NCBI RefSeq assembly: GCF_006345805.1
Contig: NC_043004.1
Coordinates: 10,974,001-11,038,000 of the forward strand
Source: Octopus sinensis
Taxonomy: Eukaryota
DNA: 64,000 bases
Direction: 5' to 3'
In this document: positions 2,221 to 47,534 of the stretch, in pieces
How positions within the stretch are numbered: the stretch's first letter is position 1
Layout: every line of letters starts with the position of its first letter
Translations under genes and position numbers: made by a program
The notes under the pieces: model-generated
Seen by the model: only the letters and a program-made list of their open reading frames with translations
The model's database searches: none
What the model was told of the DNA's origin: nothing

Positions 2221-2318
2221 ATTCGCCCATCCATCCGTACATGCATATATGTAACTATGTATTAGTCGCACATGAAGAAACAGATACCTTGGGTTATCTA
2301 CTACATCTCAGTGAATTT

Positions 2319-2736
2319 CTATTTCTTTACTACCCACAAGGGGCTAAACATAGAGGGGACAAACAAGGTCAGACAAAGGGATTAAGTCGTTTACATCGAC
2401 CCCAGTGCGTAAATGGTACTTATGTAATCGATCCCGAAAGGATGAAAGGCAAAGTCGACCTCGGCGGAATTTGAACTCAGAACGTAGCGGCAGACGAAAT
2501 ACCTATTTCTTTACTACCAACAAGGAGCTAAACACAGAGAGGACAAACAAGGACACACAAACGGATTAAGTCAATTACATCGACCCCAGTGCGTAACTGG
2601 TACTTAATTTATCGACTTCGAAAGGACGAAAGGCAAAGTCGACCTCGGCGGAATTTGAACTCAGATCGTAACAGCAGACGAAATTCGGCTACGCATTTCG
2701 CTCGGTGTGCTAACGTTTCTGCCAGCTCGCCGCCTT
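2319..2736 (-). mobile_element. SINE family B dimer (one head plus two ~184-bp body units)
   Basis: Minus-strand head AAGGCGGCGAGCTGGCAGAAACGTTAGC; B box GTTCAAATTCC; core GCCTTTCATCCTTTCGGG; imperfect 18-bp TSD at 2301-2318 and 2738-2755. Confidence 0.9.
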
Positions 2737-8803: not shown

Positions 8804-10096
8804 CGAGGGGCGTTCAATAAGTAATGCCCCTGACCCACTTCCCATAGCAGTAGAGCAACGAAACTTGGCACAGTTATTAATCTTTTTCTACATAGAAACC
8901 ATCCAGAGTTACGCATTTCTCCCATTGCTTGATGCAGCTCTGGGACCGTTTTTGTAGAAGACCCCAGCTTAGTCCGCCAACCACGACGTGACTTCAGAAA
9001 TCAAGGCTGCATCATCTGGGAAACGCTTTCCTTTCAAAAACGACTTCATGGCTGGGAAGAGGTGAAATTCAGAGGGTGCAAGGTCAGGATAGTAGGGGGA
9101 TGGGGGAGGAGTTCATAGCCGCACGCCTGTGCTTCTGATCTGGCGACACGCGAGTTGTAGACCGGAGCGTTGTCCTGCAGGAGGAGGATACCTTTGCTGA
9201 TCTTGCCCCGCTTCTTGATTTTGATAGCTTCTCTTAATTTCCTCAAAAGTGAAGCATAATAGGCTCCTGCAATTGTGGTACCCTTTGCCAGGAAATCTGT
9301 CATCACTATTCCGTCCTGGTCCCAGAAGACTGTGAGCATGACCTTGCCAGCGGAGGGCTGCACCCTTGCCTGCTTTGGAGGAGGTGAGTCACGGTGCTTC
9401 CACTGCATTGACTGGGCTTTGGTTTCTGGATCATTGTGATGGACCCAGGCTTCATCCTGTGTAATCAGTCTTTTGAAAAATTTTGACTCGTCTTCTTGGC
9501 ACATCTCCAAATTCATCCTCGAGCACTCGACTCGTTCAGGCTTCTGGAAAGGTGTGAGCAACCTGGGAATCCATCTGGCAGACACATTTTGCATATATGC
9601 AAATGGTCATGAATGATAGTTTCCACAGACCCGGTACTAATCTTGACCTCTTGGGCTATTTAGCGAATAGTTATGCGTTGATCTTCTAAAATGGCAGCCT
9701 CAACTTGACGGACAAATGCCTCATCAATGGCAGAAGGGGGGCGACCAGATCTGGGAGCTGTTTCCACAGAATTCCGACCATGTTTGAATTCATGATGCCA
9801 GCGTTTTACAAGGTCATATGATGGGGCATCATCACCATAAGTTACTTTCATTTTATCAAAAGTCTCCCGTGGTGTGCATCCTTTCAAATACAAAAACCGG
9901 ATCACTGCTCGACACTCAACAGGCTCCATTTCACACTTGTCTCAGTTCAAACACCTGTAAATCAGAAACCACAATTAGTTCAGAGCTGTAATTTGCCACT
10001 TCATCTGTAGAGATATAAATAATTGCACATGGAAAATTTCAGCTAGATCAAACAATTTCAAGTGGGTCAGAGGCATTACTTATTGAACGTCCCTCG
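8804..10096 (-). mobile_element. Full-length mariner transposon (about 1.29 kb), probably irritans-like
   Basis: About 37-bp TIRs, CGAGGGGCGTTCAATAAGTAATGCCCCTGACCCACTT and AAGTGGGTCAGAGGCATTACTTATTGAACGTCCCTCG, with TA on both sides (8802-8803, 10097-10098). Confidence 0.95.
8877..9929 (-). pseudogene. Mariner transposase, disrupted
   Basis: HTH plus RSGRP, WIPRLL, ITQDEAW, QDNAPV, YPDLAPSEFHLFP and WEKCVTLDGFYVEKD*; internal stops (for example at 9660) and several frameshifts. Confidence 0.95.
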
Positions 10097-32220: not shown

Positions 32221-32671
32221 AATTTTCTTTTTCTGATATTCTTGCCATTATTGTTCTTGTCTATTTAACCATATATTTATTTATCTATTTACCTCGTTTC
32301 CTTGAATTCCTTGCTTCCTCAAGCGCTTATGTATTTTACTCTTCTCTACCGTTTTCATATTCATCTTTTTTTTTATCCCCCAACCTCTCTTTCCTTCTAT
32401 GTTTTCTGTATCCCCTATTTCCTCTTTTGTATCTGTTTTAAGGCGGGTATTCAACGACCATCCCTACAAATGCCATTTCTTTAGCTTGTATTTTGAAACG
32501 TTGACTGAAGAGAATCACATTATATGAGGGTTGTCTTACATAACTACTAGAAACATGTGTATTCAACGTATTCAAAATAAAGACATCTGCTGTTGTGTTT
32601 TATTCTCACACACGCATATAAATATAAATACATACATACATATAAATATAAACATATATACTTACATATAA

Positions 32672-35761: not shown

Positions 35762-38212
35762 GATGATTTTTGATTTTGATTTTTCCAGTTTCAGCTTATG
35801 AGCTGTGGCCATGCTGGGGCACCGCTATTTGGTGTTGCTACTTGGTTTCACTTCATGAAGGCTTTCTAGCAGCTGCTATTTGGTGCATGAGAGAGTTCGA
35901 TGCAGCTGCCCTCATCTGCCCCTCCTGCCGTGAAGTTGGTTCATCTGGGACACCTGACAGGAAGAGATCCAGCTTCATTTTAAATACATCTGTATCCACC
36001 CCATGCAGGTCTCTCAGGTTCTTCGGGAGGATATTGAAGAGCTGTGGGCCTCGGAAGCCCAGGCTATCACAGAATCTTGTCCTACATCTTGATGGCAGGT
36101 TTGGAGTCCTAGGCACCACGCAGTGGCGCCCAGTTCTGGCATTTGCGTAACTCTCGATGCCAAAGTTCAGGACACTTCCCTCCAGGATCTTCCAGATGTA
36201 TATTATGGCATATCTTTCCCGCCTACGCTCCAGGGAATATAATTTTAATTCCTGAGTCTTTCCCAGTAGCTTACATTCTGCATAGAGGCTATCTTCTTCG
36301 TGTAGCTACGTTGGATCGCCTCGAGCTCTGTGATCAACTTGACACTGGATGGTGACCATAACTGAGAGCAGTAGTCAAAGTGGCTTAGGACAAGTGTCCT
36401 CCAGAGGACCATCATGGTTTCTTGTTCTCTTGTTCTAAAGGTTCTGAGGATCCATCCGGCCAGTCGTCTACATTTCATTGCCAATTTAGCAACATGTACA
36501 CGAAAGGTCGCGTCATCACTCATGTAAATACCTAGGTCACGCACTGATTGTGCCTCTGGGATTGCTATTCCTCCGGGTCCAGTGTATTCATTGGGTATTG
36601 CATTTAGTTTTGCATGCTGATAGTATAGAGCTTGAAACTTTTCAGCATTGAACTGCATGCTATTCTTTTCGGCCCACTTGTATATTTTGTCTAGCTCACA
36701 TTGCAGGTGTTTAGTGTCCTCAGGGTTCTGTATTGCCTGTGAAACTTTTGTATCATCTGCATAACTTGTGATCGTGGCTCTCTGCGTGGCTGAGGGCATG
36801 TCTGAGAGGGCCATTATGAACAGTAGTGGTCCCAGAACAGTGCCCTGCGGAACACCGCTCACTATTTGCGTGTTAATGGAAGTGGCCCCATTGGCCACTA
36901 CCACCTGACTTCTATCTTTCAGAAAGTCATGAAGCCATTCTCCCAGTTTTCCAACTATGTTGAGATCACGCAGTTTGTGACATATCATTCCATGATCGAC
37001 TTTATCAAAGGCCTTTGCAAAGTCGAGATATATCACTTCCACATTTGAGTGGTTGAGCAGCCGTTTCAGCAGCCAGTCATAGTGTTGTAGGAGCTGAGTT
37101 AAACAGCTTCTCCCTGGTCGGAAACCATGTTGGGTGTCGGGCAGCAAGTCATTTTCTTCAAGGAAGGTGATCAGCTTCCTTCTGACTATTCGTTCCATGA
37201 CCTTGCTGATGTGTGAGGTCAGAGAGATAGGTCTATAGTTCTTGGCTTCCGCTCTGCTACCTCCTTTATGAATGGGGCATATTTTACCTTCCTTCAGTTT
37301 TCTTGGAAGTTTGCCAGCTGCAAGGAAGCTCTGAAAGAGGAACTGCAGTGGTCTTGCTAGGACTCTCTTATATGCTTTTAGGAGGATTGCCGGGAATCCA
37401 TCGGGGCCAGTAGCTGAGTCTGTTTTCATTTCATCTATAGCCTTGATTACATCGTCTTCCTTTATATCGATGTAATCTATCGTCGCCGCCTCTGATTTTA
37501 TATCTGCAGTGGTAAAAAAGTCAGTTGGATTGGTGATTTGGAGATGCCCAAGGGGTGGAGTGAAAACACTCTTGAATTGCTCATTCAGTATTTCACTTAC
37601 CCTCATTGGTTTTCCTGTAAGTGTGCCATCCTTTTCGAGGAGTGGCCCTATTCTACAGTGCACCGTAGCTGTTTCTTTGGCATACCTGTAGAAAGCTCTG
37701 GGGTTAGATTTTATGTTGTCTATAGCCCAGGCTTCTTTGTCTGCTCTTTCCTTTTCATGGGAGAGTTTCAGACATTTTTCGATTTCCAACAATTTTATTT
37801 TTAGGCGGGACTTTTCACTGCTTTCAATCTGTTTGTTTAGGCGATTTGAAAATTTTGTACGCCGTCTCATTAGAATTTTCCTCTCTCTGGGGATTTTGTT
37901 CTTGTGTACAGTGGCTTTTCTCTCTGGGACATATTTGTAGCATATGGCTTGCATTACAGACATGAATTGTTGAAGTTTCACGTCGATGTCTGGCGAGGAG
38001 AGACATTTAGGCCAGTTTTGTTTGAGGATCTCTTTCTCAATTTGTTTCCAGTTTGCCTTATGGTAGTTCAAGCTGGAAAGATTCTGGGGGTTTCTTGTAG
38101 GCTGCATGTCCGTGCTCTCTTTTGGCCCGTACATGGTCAGCTCTATCATGTTGTGATCCGAGAGTAGTGTCGGTGTCACTTTCACATTATGGATGAGATC
38201 GATGTCATTTGT
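35762..38212 (-). mobile_element. 5'-truncated CR1/L2-group LINE with intact 3' end
   Basis: ORF2 from the end of the endonuclease to the stop, short 3' UTR with hairpin, and (AAAATC)n-type tail. Confidence 0.92.
35853..38212 (-). pseudogene. LINE ORF2 (APE end plus reverse transcriptase), one frameshift near 36245
   Basis: SDH, NYRPISLTS, QHGFRPGRSC, YLDFAKAFDKV, GVPQGTVLGPLLF and YADD; after the shift it reads LKLYSLERRRERY..GPQLFNILP..FKMKLDLFLSGVPDEP. Confidence 0.95.
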
Positions 38213-38429
38213 ATAGTTATACATATATCATATCTTGATACTCTGTGACTAGAATATACCTTGACAAGCCACATGCACATTTGTAGTTTCCAGTTCTCTG
38301 GTGTTATTGGATTTGTTGTGTATATGAACGGTTTGATCATTTGGTACTTTTGTATTGGCCAAGTGGCACTTGACGAACAGGGGTCAAAAATCGATCCTTA
38401 CGTTTTCGATATATGAAGAAATAGTTAAA

Positions 38430-40221: not shown

Positions 40222-40365
40222 TATAAATAAGGGTATCTGAGAGATACCACCATGCCGAAATAGCAGTCAAAATCCTGACCCTAAAACCACCTTAAATGTT
40301 CATATCTCGCCATGGGATAAGACAGCGAGACAAAATAAACTAGCAAAAAAAGATTTTACTGGATA

Positions 40366-40424
40366 ATTCAAGATCCTGGATTTCTGGCTTTGCTTCAAAT
40401 AAGCTTTGTCTTCGTCAGTTGAAT
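40366..40424 (-). ncRNA. Type I hammerhead motif with palindromic helix III
   Basis: Minus strand ATTCAA-CTGACGA-AGAC..GCTT-atttg-AAGC..GCCA-GAAA-TCCAGGA-TC-TTGAAT: 6-bp stem I and AUC site; stem II base is mismatched. The module 3' end abuts (TA)n at 40216. Confidence 0.75.
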
Positions 40425-40620
40425 ATACCAGATGGGCACATAAATACAAATATATATATACAGAATATACGTTATACATACATATACGAACGTCCATACA
40501 TACATATATATGCACGTATGTACAAGACCGTGCATATTATGTATGTATGTCAAATGACTGAAACAAGTAAAAGAGTAATATGCATGAATGTATGCATCTG
40601 TATGTGTGTGGATATACACA

Positions 40621-46580: not shown

Positions 46581-46664
46581 ATATATATATATCATGTTGA
46601 TTCGATAGTTACTGCACGCATTTTTTTTCTCTCCTTCTTTCTGTGTTTTTTTTCTCTCTGTGTA

Positions 46665-46702
46665 TCTTTCTGTTGAAGAGCGTAGGCTCGAAACGTTAAA
46701 GA
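46665..46702 (+). ncRNA. Minimal hammerhead-like motif with variant core CUGUUGA, in module 46595-46800
   Basis: TCTTT-CTGTTGA-A-GAGC-gtag-GCTC-GAAAC-GTT-AAAGA; same family as 23481-23655 and also ends in (TA)n. Confidence 0.7.
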
Positions 46703-46800
46703 CTTGTTTTATTTATATTTCCTGAGCGCCATACTAATACAATTGTTTGTTTGTTTTCCACCTGCCTTCGTCTTTTGTCTATTTTCATAAAGCTTCCCGT

Positions 46801-46914: not shown

Positions 46915-46952
46915 AATGTATGCATGAACGTATGCACGTATATTTTGAAATA

Positions 46953-47226
46953 TATTAACTGATGAAGGTTAATATATGACCCCATTTTCAAGAAATTGAT
47001 GAATGTTGCCGATGTGCATGTGTGCAAGCGTGTGTGGAGTCGACATGCGCAGAAACGTGTTACTTTTGCAACAAGCTGGTTTCCTGTAGGGAGTTACAGG
47101 TAGCTAGCTGGTTGCTATAGCAACACCCTTCTGCGCATGTCCACTCCATACACGCTCGTACACACGCACATCGACAACATTTGTCAATTTCTTTAAAACG
47201 GTGTCATAAAGCCGAAATATTGAATA
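46953..47226 (+). ncRNA. Hammerhead core split by a 234-nt hairpin in stem II
   Basis: TATTAA-CTGATGA-A-GGTT-aata-[114-nt arm, 6-nt loop, 114-nt arm]-a-AGCC-GAAA-TA-TTGAATA. Confidence 0.6.
46975..47208. repeat. Ungapped foldback (arms 46975-47088 and 47095-47208)
   Basis: About 20 mismatches in 114 positions by hand count, no indels. Confidence 0.95.
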
Positions 47227-47468
47227 CAAGGTAAGTCTAGATTATTTCACATAATTTGTCTTCTTGTGATTTGCCTTCCATTTACTTCGCATTGTTTTGG
47301 CCTAGGCCACGATCTTATATACGCCTCGTCGTTTTAAATGTGTATTATGTAGTATAGACATTTTTAGTACAATGTTAATAATAATAATATATTTAAATTT
47401 ATATTTTGTTATAGATAATATATTTCATTATTAATTGAATTACTTTATAGAGGTTCTGTCTCTTAATT

Positions 47469-47534
<66 letters not shown>

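What the first reader, a model, noticed from the sequence alone, without database searches (positions are those of the whole stretch)
46953..47226. Hammerhead ribozyme core whose stem II is a 234-nt foldback
Seen: CTGATGA (46959-46965) and GAAA (47214-47217) sit at the two feet of an ungapped 114+6+114-nt hairpin, closed by GGTT/AGCC. The flanks TATTAA and TTGAATA resemble stem I of the hammerhead at 40366-40424 (ATTCAA/TTGAAT). A strong splice donor AAG|GTAAGT follows at about 47230. Established: Penelope-like elements carry minimal type I hammerheads with little or no helix III, and their stem II is normally short. Inference: either a foldback MITE landed in loop II while preserving the fold, or a family natively couples self-cleavage to a long dsRNA stem (a Dicer/ADAR substrate). 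Standard hammerhead descriptors with short stem II limits would miss it. Helix III is essentially absent (GAAA-UA), so this copy may be inactive.
Basis: partly seen in the sequence, partly recalled or inferred. Interest (0 to 1): 0.8.

Follow-up and report, generated by a model that had tools for sequence, protein, structure and literature searches.

The report
Two-family hammerhead chimera in transposon debris
The apparent self-cutting RNA with a giant hairpin is a one-off patchwork: the front half of one repeat family's hammerhead ribozyme lies against a head-to-head pair of ends from a different Penelope-like retrotransposon family, most likely joined by a deletion, and it is predicted not to cut.

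Summary
The motifs and the 114+6+114 hairpin are real, but they are not one element, and the hairpin is no MITE.

- The hairpin is a head-to-head pair of 3' ends of a Penelope-like retrotransposon (family A). Such foldbacks occur at 24 of 49 family-A loci examined.
- GAAA-TA-TTGAAT and the splice donor belong to family A's own short hammerhead (U3-A8 core, 4-bp stem II), which is decayed in this copy.
- CTGATGA is the 5' 29 nt of a different hammerhead family (E; 11 other copies, 0 control hits), whose 3' half is missing here.
- The E-A junction occurs once in the genome.
- The arms decay without strand bias (6 G-U, 6 A-C).
- The chimeric fold has no helix III and is predicted at P ≤3e-4.

Best reading: a non-cleaving chimeric relic made by deletion with a short templated filler (0.85). 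The one hint of selection is a private CC>AG change that lengthens the stem II foot from 2 to 4 bp. Side result: this genome holds hammerhead families with natively long stem II (47 and 82 nt).

The parts
46941..46969 (+). 5' fragment of hammerhead family E: 5' strand of stem I, core CTGATGA (46959-46965) and first bases of stem II. The 3' half of E is absent.
   Evidence: 12 hits at up to 2 mismatches, 0 for the reversed control; the other 11 continue into a full hammerhead; nhmmer matches model positions 3-31, E=0.001, with no further E hit until 50667.
46970..46974 (.). 5-nt filler at the E-A junction. 46967-46977 is a 10/11 reverse-complement copy of 46950-46960 (inferred templated insert) and forms a competing hairpin.
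46975..47088 (-). Left arm: inverted copy of the family A (Penelope-like) 3' region, cut off inside loop II of family A's own hammerhead
   Evidence: (87% to natural copy L004)
47088..47322 (+). Forward 5'-truncated copy of family A: last codons of the ORF (stop 47118-47120) and the pLTR region. The first 114 nt after the loop form the right arm (47095-47208).
   Evidence: (90% to L004); RT and GIY-YIG frames lie upstream in other copies
47189..47224 (+). Family A's native minimal hammerhead, decayed here: core 47192-47198 (G5 position T; G in 52 of 55 copies), stem II 47200-47203/47210-47213 broken, GAAA 47214-47217, palindromic ATAT 47217-47220
   Evidence: architecture as in PMC4209133
47210..47211 (+). 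Private CC>AG change that lets AGCC pair with GGTT
   Evidence: C in 50 of 55 and 49 of 55 copies; 1 of 100 listed hits; 0 of 54 copies pair fully.
47228..47236 (+). Splice-donor motif AAG|GTAAGT native to family A (likely pLTR intron). The candidate acceptor seen about 120 nt downstream in other copies is cut off here.
   Evidence: intron function inferred from PLE literature, not tested
47323..47470 (+). 3' fragment of repeat family B, starting in helix III of B's own long-stem-II hammerhead (core and GAAA absent here)

Best explanation
The locus is a single-copy patchwork of three repeat families, in which the 5' half of a family-E hammerhead lies against a head-to-head pair of Penelope-like family-A ends, likely joined by a deletion, and the resulting hammerhead-shaped chimera is predicted not to cleave. 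Shown: CTGATGA comes from family E; the hairpin, GAAA and splice donor come from family A; the right flank comes from family B; the junction is unique in the assembly. Inferred sequence of events: (1) family A inserted in the usual Penelope way, as a 5'-truncated copy with an inverted copy at its 5' end, next to a full E element in a (TA)n-rich tract; (2) a deletion of roughly 200-250 bp removed the 3' ~100 nt of E and the outer ~115-150 nt of the inverted A copy, and was repaired with a short snap-back templated filler; (3) the arms then decayed neutrally, and A's own hammerhead lost G5 and its stem II. If transcribed, the RNA would form a long imperfect duplex like the family's other foldbacks, but cleavage would need a dimer partner that is absent.
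For: Family A origin. RT and GIY-YIG upstream in other copies: weak, below cut-offs; PF26215 clusters, score 0.96. Foldbacks at 24 of 49 loci, none with CUGANGA at the foot, and all 24 left arms reach at least the 47262-equivalent whereas this one stops at 47208. Inverted 5' partners are described as typical of PLE insertions (PMC8557442 passages). Family E origin. Junction unique. Filler is a reverse-complement copy of 46950-46960. Arm mismatches are 6 G-U and 6 A-C, with one shared derived base. The chimeric fold lies 4.8-10.4 kcal/mol above the MFE, P = 2.8e-4 to 2.4e-8. A15.1 and U16.1 are adjacent, and a single minimal hammerhead showed no detectable cleavage in PMC4209133. Rfam gives no hammerhead match at E<=10.
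Against: The private CC>AG change turns two mismatches into pairs with GGTT; 0 of 54 other copies do this. My rough post-hoc chance is about 1e-3 if the two changes were independent, although the same copy has another multi-base change at 47304-47306. When forced, stem I extends to 4+3+7 bp. Decayed E copies also fold poorly (median closing-pair P 0.10 and 0.016, n=18), so the folding argument separates only weakly. No listed contig bridged the E-A junction, so it rests on this assembly alone. The deletion is inferred; no empty or pre-deletion allele was seen.
Confidence: 0.85

Rival explanations
1. Same chimera, but made at insertion: family A integrated into stem II of an E element, or the Penelope reverse transcriptase switched template between E and A RNA, with loss of E's 3' half. 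Also non-functional.
For: PLEs tend to insert into or beside other PLEs (PMC6765202 passage). All three junctions fall inside hammerhead motifs: E stem II, A loop II, B helix III.
Against: E's 3' half is not found beyond the insertion. All 24 other foldbacks have longer left arms. The filler looks templated from local DNA.
Confidence: 0.08
2. The chimera arose by accident but has been co-opted: it cleaves as a dimer or with help and releases a ~260-nt hairpin for Dicer or ADAR.
For: Intact CUGAUGA and GAAA. Private CC>AG completes a 4-bp foot. The competing internal hammerhead is dead. A contig of organism C covers 47128-47239 with 1 difference, so the right foot is shared beyond this assembly.
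Against: No helix III and no tandem partner. The competing 5' hairpin has P>0.9 over most pairs. No strand bias in arm decay. The ORF list (>=110 aa) showed repeat-derived frames and no recognisable host gene near the locus (read by eye, not scanned against Pfam).
Confidence: 0.04
3. A foldback MITE landed in loop II of one intact hammerhead (first reader, option 1).
For: TA dinucleotides lie at both feet of the hairpin.
Against: The arms are the 3' end of an RT/GIY-YIG element and run on without a break into GAAA and the donor in 55 copies. The two half-cores come from different families.
Confidence: 0.01
4. A repeat family natively couples self-cleavage to this 234-nt stem (first reader, option 2), or the junction is an assembly error.
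For: Families B and E do have natively long stem II (82 and 47 nt). For error: no listed contig spans the junction.
Against: The junction pattern has 1 hit in 2.7 Gb; 0 of 24 foldbacks carry the core. A templated filler is more typical of repair than of mis-assembly (inference).
Confidence: 0.02

Closest known systems
Penelope-like elements with tandem/inverted pLTR insertions (PMC8557442, passages; Fig. 2 legend)
   Same: 5'-truncated copy with an inverted copy at its 5' end; RT followed by C-terminal GIY-YIG; hammerhead and splice donor in the pLTR; location among (TA)n microsatellites.
   Different: Here only 235 nt of the forward copy remain, the inverted arm is cut off inside the hammerhead's loop II, and it is fused to another family's half-core.
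Minimal PLE hammerheads (min-HHR), including the U3-A8 core variant of Schistosoma Cercyon elements (PMC4209133, parts 1-2 of 4)
   Same: Family A's native motif has U3-A8, an extra nucleotide between 9 and 10.1, G10.1-C11.1 and a palindromic 15.1-16.1 region. The paper also reports dual min-HHRs 100-700 bp apart on opposite strands.
   Different: Family A's helix I is only 3 bp. The window's apparent ribozyme is a composite of two families with 248 nt between the half-cores.
Rfam Hammerhead_1 (RF00163), type I hammerhead
   Same: Order stem I - CUGANGA - stem II - GAAA - UH - stem I.
   Different: The locus gives no match at E<=10. A natural family-B copy matches at 17.9 bits with a 78-nt unaligned loop II, below the gathering score of 34.
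Foldback MITEs
   Same: Short non-coding inverted repeat.
   Different: The arms are not element termini; the family sequence continues past the right arm and, in other copies, past both.

Membership tests
Penelope-like element (family A, source of hairpin) | RT followed by a C-terminal GIY-YIG endonuclease in one ORF | tested here: met
   Frames in natural copies show YVDD then a GIY-YIG-like C-terminus with CxxC and two His. Pfam RVT_1 E=0.029 and GIY-YIG E=0.083 are both below cut-off. Atlas hits are PF26215 clusters at 0.96; the link of PF26215 to PLEs is recalled. No phylogeny was built.
Penelope-like element (family A) | Tandem or inverted 5'-truncated partner copies | tested here: met
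   24 of 49 distinct loci are head-to-head; tandem pairs at L017/L018 and L106/L107.
Penelope-like element (family A) | Hammerhead motif in the pLTR | tested here: met
   U3-A8 min-HHR motif in 36 of 55 copies, 17 of 55 with 4/4 stem II pairs. Cleavage not tested.
Penelope-like element (family A) | Intron in the pLTR/5' UTR | tested here: inconclusive
   Donor conserved; candidate acceptor in 4 of 5 copies printed; no spliced reads examined.
Type I hammerhead (the chimera) | Conserved core CUGANGA ... GAAA ... UH | tested here: met
Type I hammerhead (the chimera) | Helix III, or a tandem partner with a palindromic helix III | tested here: not met
   A15.1 (47217) and U16.1 (47218) are adjacent; the junction is single-copy. 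In family A's own register (cut after 47221) the first stem I pair with the E strand is an A-G mismatch (sequence).
Type I hammerhead (the chimera) | Stems I and II form around the core | tested here: inconclusive
   Possible but disfavoured, P<=2.8e-4; decayed E copies also score low.
Type I hammerhead (the chimera) | Self-cleavage | not testable with these tools
   Needs an in vitro assay or RNA-end data.
MITE | Terminal inverted repeats at element ends with target-site duplication; multi-copy as a unit | tested here: not met
   arm lengths vary by locus and continue into retroelement sequence
Hammerhead family E (source of CTGATGA) | Full type I architecture across copies | tested here: met
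   36 copies scored (5 of 41 dropped as partial or interrupted): C3 36/36, G5 36/36, G8 33/36, inner stem I pairs 31-35/36, A15.1-U16.1 31/36. This is conservation by descent with few two-sided changes; RNAalifold gave no consensus fold. Eleven copies were picked by a pattern containing the core.

The most novel reading that the evidence does not exclude
Recombination between two Penelope-type families built a new hammerhead from two half-cores; a later CC>AG change completed its stem II foot and was kept by selection, and the locus now cleaves (as a dimer or with help) to release a 114-bp hairpin for Dicer or ADAR. This would be the birth of a ribozyme by shuffling of transposon parts.
Probability: 0.04. 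Interest if true: 0.75.

Novelty: new member of a known kind. Interest (0 to 1): 0.2.

Why it matters
As found, it matters little: it is transposon debris built from known parts. It is a useful caution that in genomes full of Penelope pLTR fragments, half-cores from different families can frame a foldback and mimic a long-stem ribozyme. Two by-products are worth keeping. Family A makes head-to-head foldbacks at about half of the loci examined, a large potential source of long dsRNA. Families B and E have natively long stem II regions (82 and 47 nt), and a B copy falls below Rfam's gathering score, so hammerhead counts in such genomes are probably too low. If the chimera did cleave, it would be a clear case of a ribozyme assembled from two transposon families.

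Tried and rejected
- Rfam on the whole window: swamped by microsatellite-driven miRNA matches; 150 of 266 rows shown, none a hammerhead.
- Left flank as a unique sequence: an exact 18-mer and a 65-nt DNA search found only the locus. This was misleading; a 2-mismatch pattern found family E.
- Family C (CTGATGAAGG...AGCCGAAA) as donor of both feet: rejected; its upstream and downstream sequences differ.
- Family D (40366-40424) as donor: its match is within the shuffled-control range.
- One search's constrained fold forced an A-A pair and used wrong coordinates for the competing hairpin; redone.
- RNAalifold on family E returned no structure; pairs were counted by hand instead.
- Expression: no RNA holder listed, which is no evidence either way. 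Small-RNA and editing data were not examined.
- Laying contigs: no listed piece bridges the E-A junction. The left-flank matches were other loci; at least one has E-type flanks. Holes prove nothing.
- My strict descriptor scan found only 1 hammerhead in the window against 0 in 20 shuffles, so it cannot give a density.
- Earlier scan notes: none for this genome.
- Literature: searches listed no paper on these families or on such a chimera (one search returned 0). Subscription journals, Repbase and Dfam were not searchable. Lunse et al. 2017 was not held and no supplements were read; either may describe long-stem-II PLE hammerheads.

Full report
Observation. The hairpin pairs 46975-47088 with 47095-47208 without gaps around a 6-nt loop: 94 Watson-Crick, 6 G-U, 6 A-C and 8 other pairs, z = -19.6 against 100 shuffles. 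GGTT/AGCC sits below a 4x1 internal loop. The genome is 2.7 Gb and rich in microsatellites. It looks octopus-like to me; that is an unchecked inference, used only to choose literature terms.

The hairpin is the end of a Penelope-like element. A genome search with 46945-47240 gave 87 matches from 40 scored candidates of 720. Most match the right arm plus the right flank on one strand, and the left arm on the other strand at the same place. Only the locus itself covers the first 27 query bases. [quoted passage not shown] Pfam support is weak (RVT_1 E=0.029, GIY-YIG E=0.083, both below cut-off); the Atlas places the fragment with PF26215 clusters at 0.96. The window holds a forward copy at 47088-47322 and an inverted copy at 46975-47088 (90% and 87% to natural copy L004). 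Of 58 family-A loci fetched, 9 overlapping duplicates were dropped; 24 of the remaining 49 are head-to-head foldbacks. Thirty of the 58 were chosen by a pattern over 47203-47227, which may favour some arrangements. An inverted 5'-truncated partner is described as typical of PLE insertions (PMC8557442, passages), and dual minimal hammerheads 100-700 bp apart on opposite strands are reported in PMC4209133.

GAAA belongs to family A's own hammerhead. In 55 aligned copies the commonest letters form a minimal hammerhead: a 3-bp stem I, a TTGAAAA core, one extra base, a GGGG/CCCC stem II with a 6-nt loop, GAAA, a palindromic ATAT, and then the donor AAG|GTAAGT. The U3-A8 core, extra base, G10.1-C11.1 and palindrome match PMC4209133 (parts 1-2 of 4 read). 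Thirty-six of 55 copies keep the motif and 17 keep all four stem II pairs. The window's right copy has T at G5 (G in 52 of 55) and changes at 47199, 47202, 47210 and 47211, so its native ribozyme is predicted dead (that G5 is required is recalled knowledge). The donor is native; a candidate acceptor about 120 nt downstream in other copies (4 of 5 printed) is cut off here by family B.

CTGATGA belongs to another family. Exact and BLAST-type searches of the left flank found only the locus. A 25-mer with up to 2 mismatches found 12 places against 0 for the reversed control, varying mostly at N7. The other 11 continue into a full type I hammerhead (one is interrupted by an insertion). A further search gave 43 matches from 40 of 214 candidates. 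In 36 copies scored (5 of 41 dropped as partial or interrupted) C3 and G5 are 36/36, G8 33/36, inner stem I pairs 31-35/36, and 22 of 36 have 47 nt between core and GAAA. This is conservation by descent rather than covariation. A profile of family E matches the window at 46941-46969 only (model 3-31, E=0.001), with nothing for the 3' half nearby. The E-A junction pattern has one hit in the genome, and 0 of 24 other foldbacks have CUGANGA at the foot.

Right flank. From about 47323 the sequence is a third repeat, family B (52 matches from 40 of 419 candidates), entering in helix III of B's own hammerhead. Four of six B copies printed have 82 nt between core and GAAA; one scores 17.9 bits on Rfam Hammerhead_1, below the gathering score of 34.

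How it arose (inferred). All 24 other left arms reach at least the 47262-equivalent; this one stops at 47208. E's 3' half is also missing. Between the two lies a 5-nt filler, and 46967-46977 is a 10/11 reverse-complement copy of 46950-46960, the pattern expected of snap-back templated repair (recalled). One deletion of about 200-250 bp explains all three facts. Insertion of A into E, or a template switch, is the main alternative; PLEs tend to insert in or beside other PLEs (PMC6765202, passages).

Would it cleave? The chimera has an intact core but A15.1 and U16.1 are adjacent, so it could act only as a dimer. It has no tandem partner, and a single minimal hammerhead showed no detectable cleavage in PMC4209133. 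The filler hairpin buries the core: the hammerhead fold lies 4.8, 5.4 and 10.4 kcal/mol above the MFE in three contexts, P = 2.8e-4 to 2.4e-8. Rfam finds no hammerhead at the locus. The arms differ from the family's commonest letters at 13 of 114 (left arm) and 21 of 235 (forward copy) positions, with equal G-U and A-C mismatches, as expected for neutral decay.

Against this reading. The CC>AG change at 47210-47211 is private (1 of 100 listed hits; 0 of 54 copies pair fully with GGTT) and extends the foot from 2 to 4 bp. A rough post-hoc chance is 1e-3 for two independent changes, but the copy has another multi-base change at 47304-47306. When forced, stem I can extend to 4+3+7 bp with wobbles. 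Decayed E copies also fold poorly, so folding is a weak discriminator. Contigs of other coded organisms share the right part: organism C covers 47128-47239 with 1 difference, organism B covers the A-B junction with 0. No listed contig bridges the E-A junction, so it rests on this assembly. Expression could not be assessed.

Papers seen: PMC4209133 (parts 1-2 of 4); PMC8557442, PMC6765202, PMC11167929 and PMC3088659 (passages); bioRxiv 10.64898/2026.07.22.740005 (part 1 of 5); others as search listings only. Lunse et al. 2017 was not held. No supplements were read, and they may bear on whether long-stem-II PLE hammerheads are already described.

Verdict. A real but ordinary patchwork of Penelope-type debris, most likely non-cleaving (0.85 for the deletion route, 0.93 with the insertion route). 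Novelty: new member of a known kind. Interest 0.2. The co-opted chimeric ribozyme is not excluded (0.04; interest 0.75 if true).

Noticed in passing
L040, L044, L047, L048 (L048:1250-1362 +); 3' fragment at window 47323-47470: Family B: type I hammerhead with a natively long stem II region (82 nt between CTGAAGA and GAAA) and a palindromic helix III. It scores below Rfam's gathering threshold.
   Followed up: partly
L158-L198; window 32489-32591 (+) and 46941-46969 (+): Family E: old ~130-nt hammerhead repeat with 47 nt between the half-cores and a two-part stem I. Several copies lie head-to-head. No ORF was sought for it.
   Followed up: partly
family A loci L002-L030, L102-L131: About half of the loci (24 of 49) are head-to-head foldbacks, a possible genome-wide source of long dsRNA.
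   Followed up: partly
L053, L057-L101: Family C: abundant, fairly young hammerhead repeat with a 5-bp stem II; 258 hits for one variant pattern alone, 0 control.
   Followed up: partly
window 40330-40445 (-); L132-L156: Family D: canonical type I hammerhead with a palindromic helix III; the best copies are 92-97% identical.
   Followed up: partly
window 14997 (-) and about 46660-46705 (+): Two copies of a further minimal hammerhead type ending GAAACGTTAAAG; the second has a damaged core (CTGTTGA).
   Followed up: no
window 46969/46975, 47208-equivalent, 47323: All three family junctions at this locus fall inside hammerhead motifs (E stem II, A loop II, B helix III). This may be chance, since these fragments are short; not tested.
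   Followed up: no
window 36245-38227 (-), 35853-36305 (-), 9046-9606 (-): A 660-aa LINE-type reverse transcriptase frame and a mariner-like transposase fragment, recognised by eye from the translations.
   Followed up: no
window 2318-2617 and 12 further places (family D14): A dispersed ~184-nt-period repeat family occurs many times in the window.
   Followed up: no
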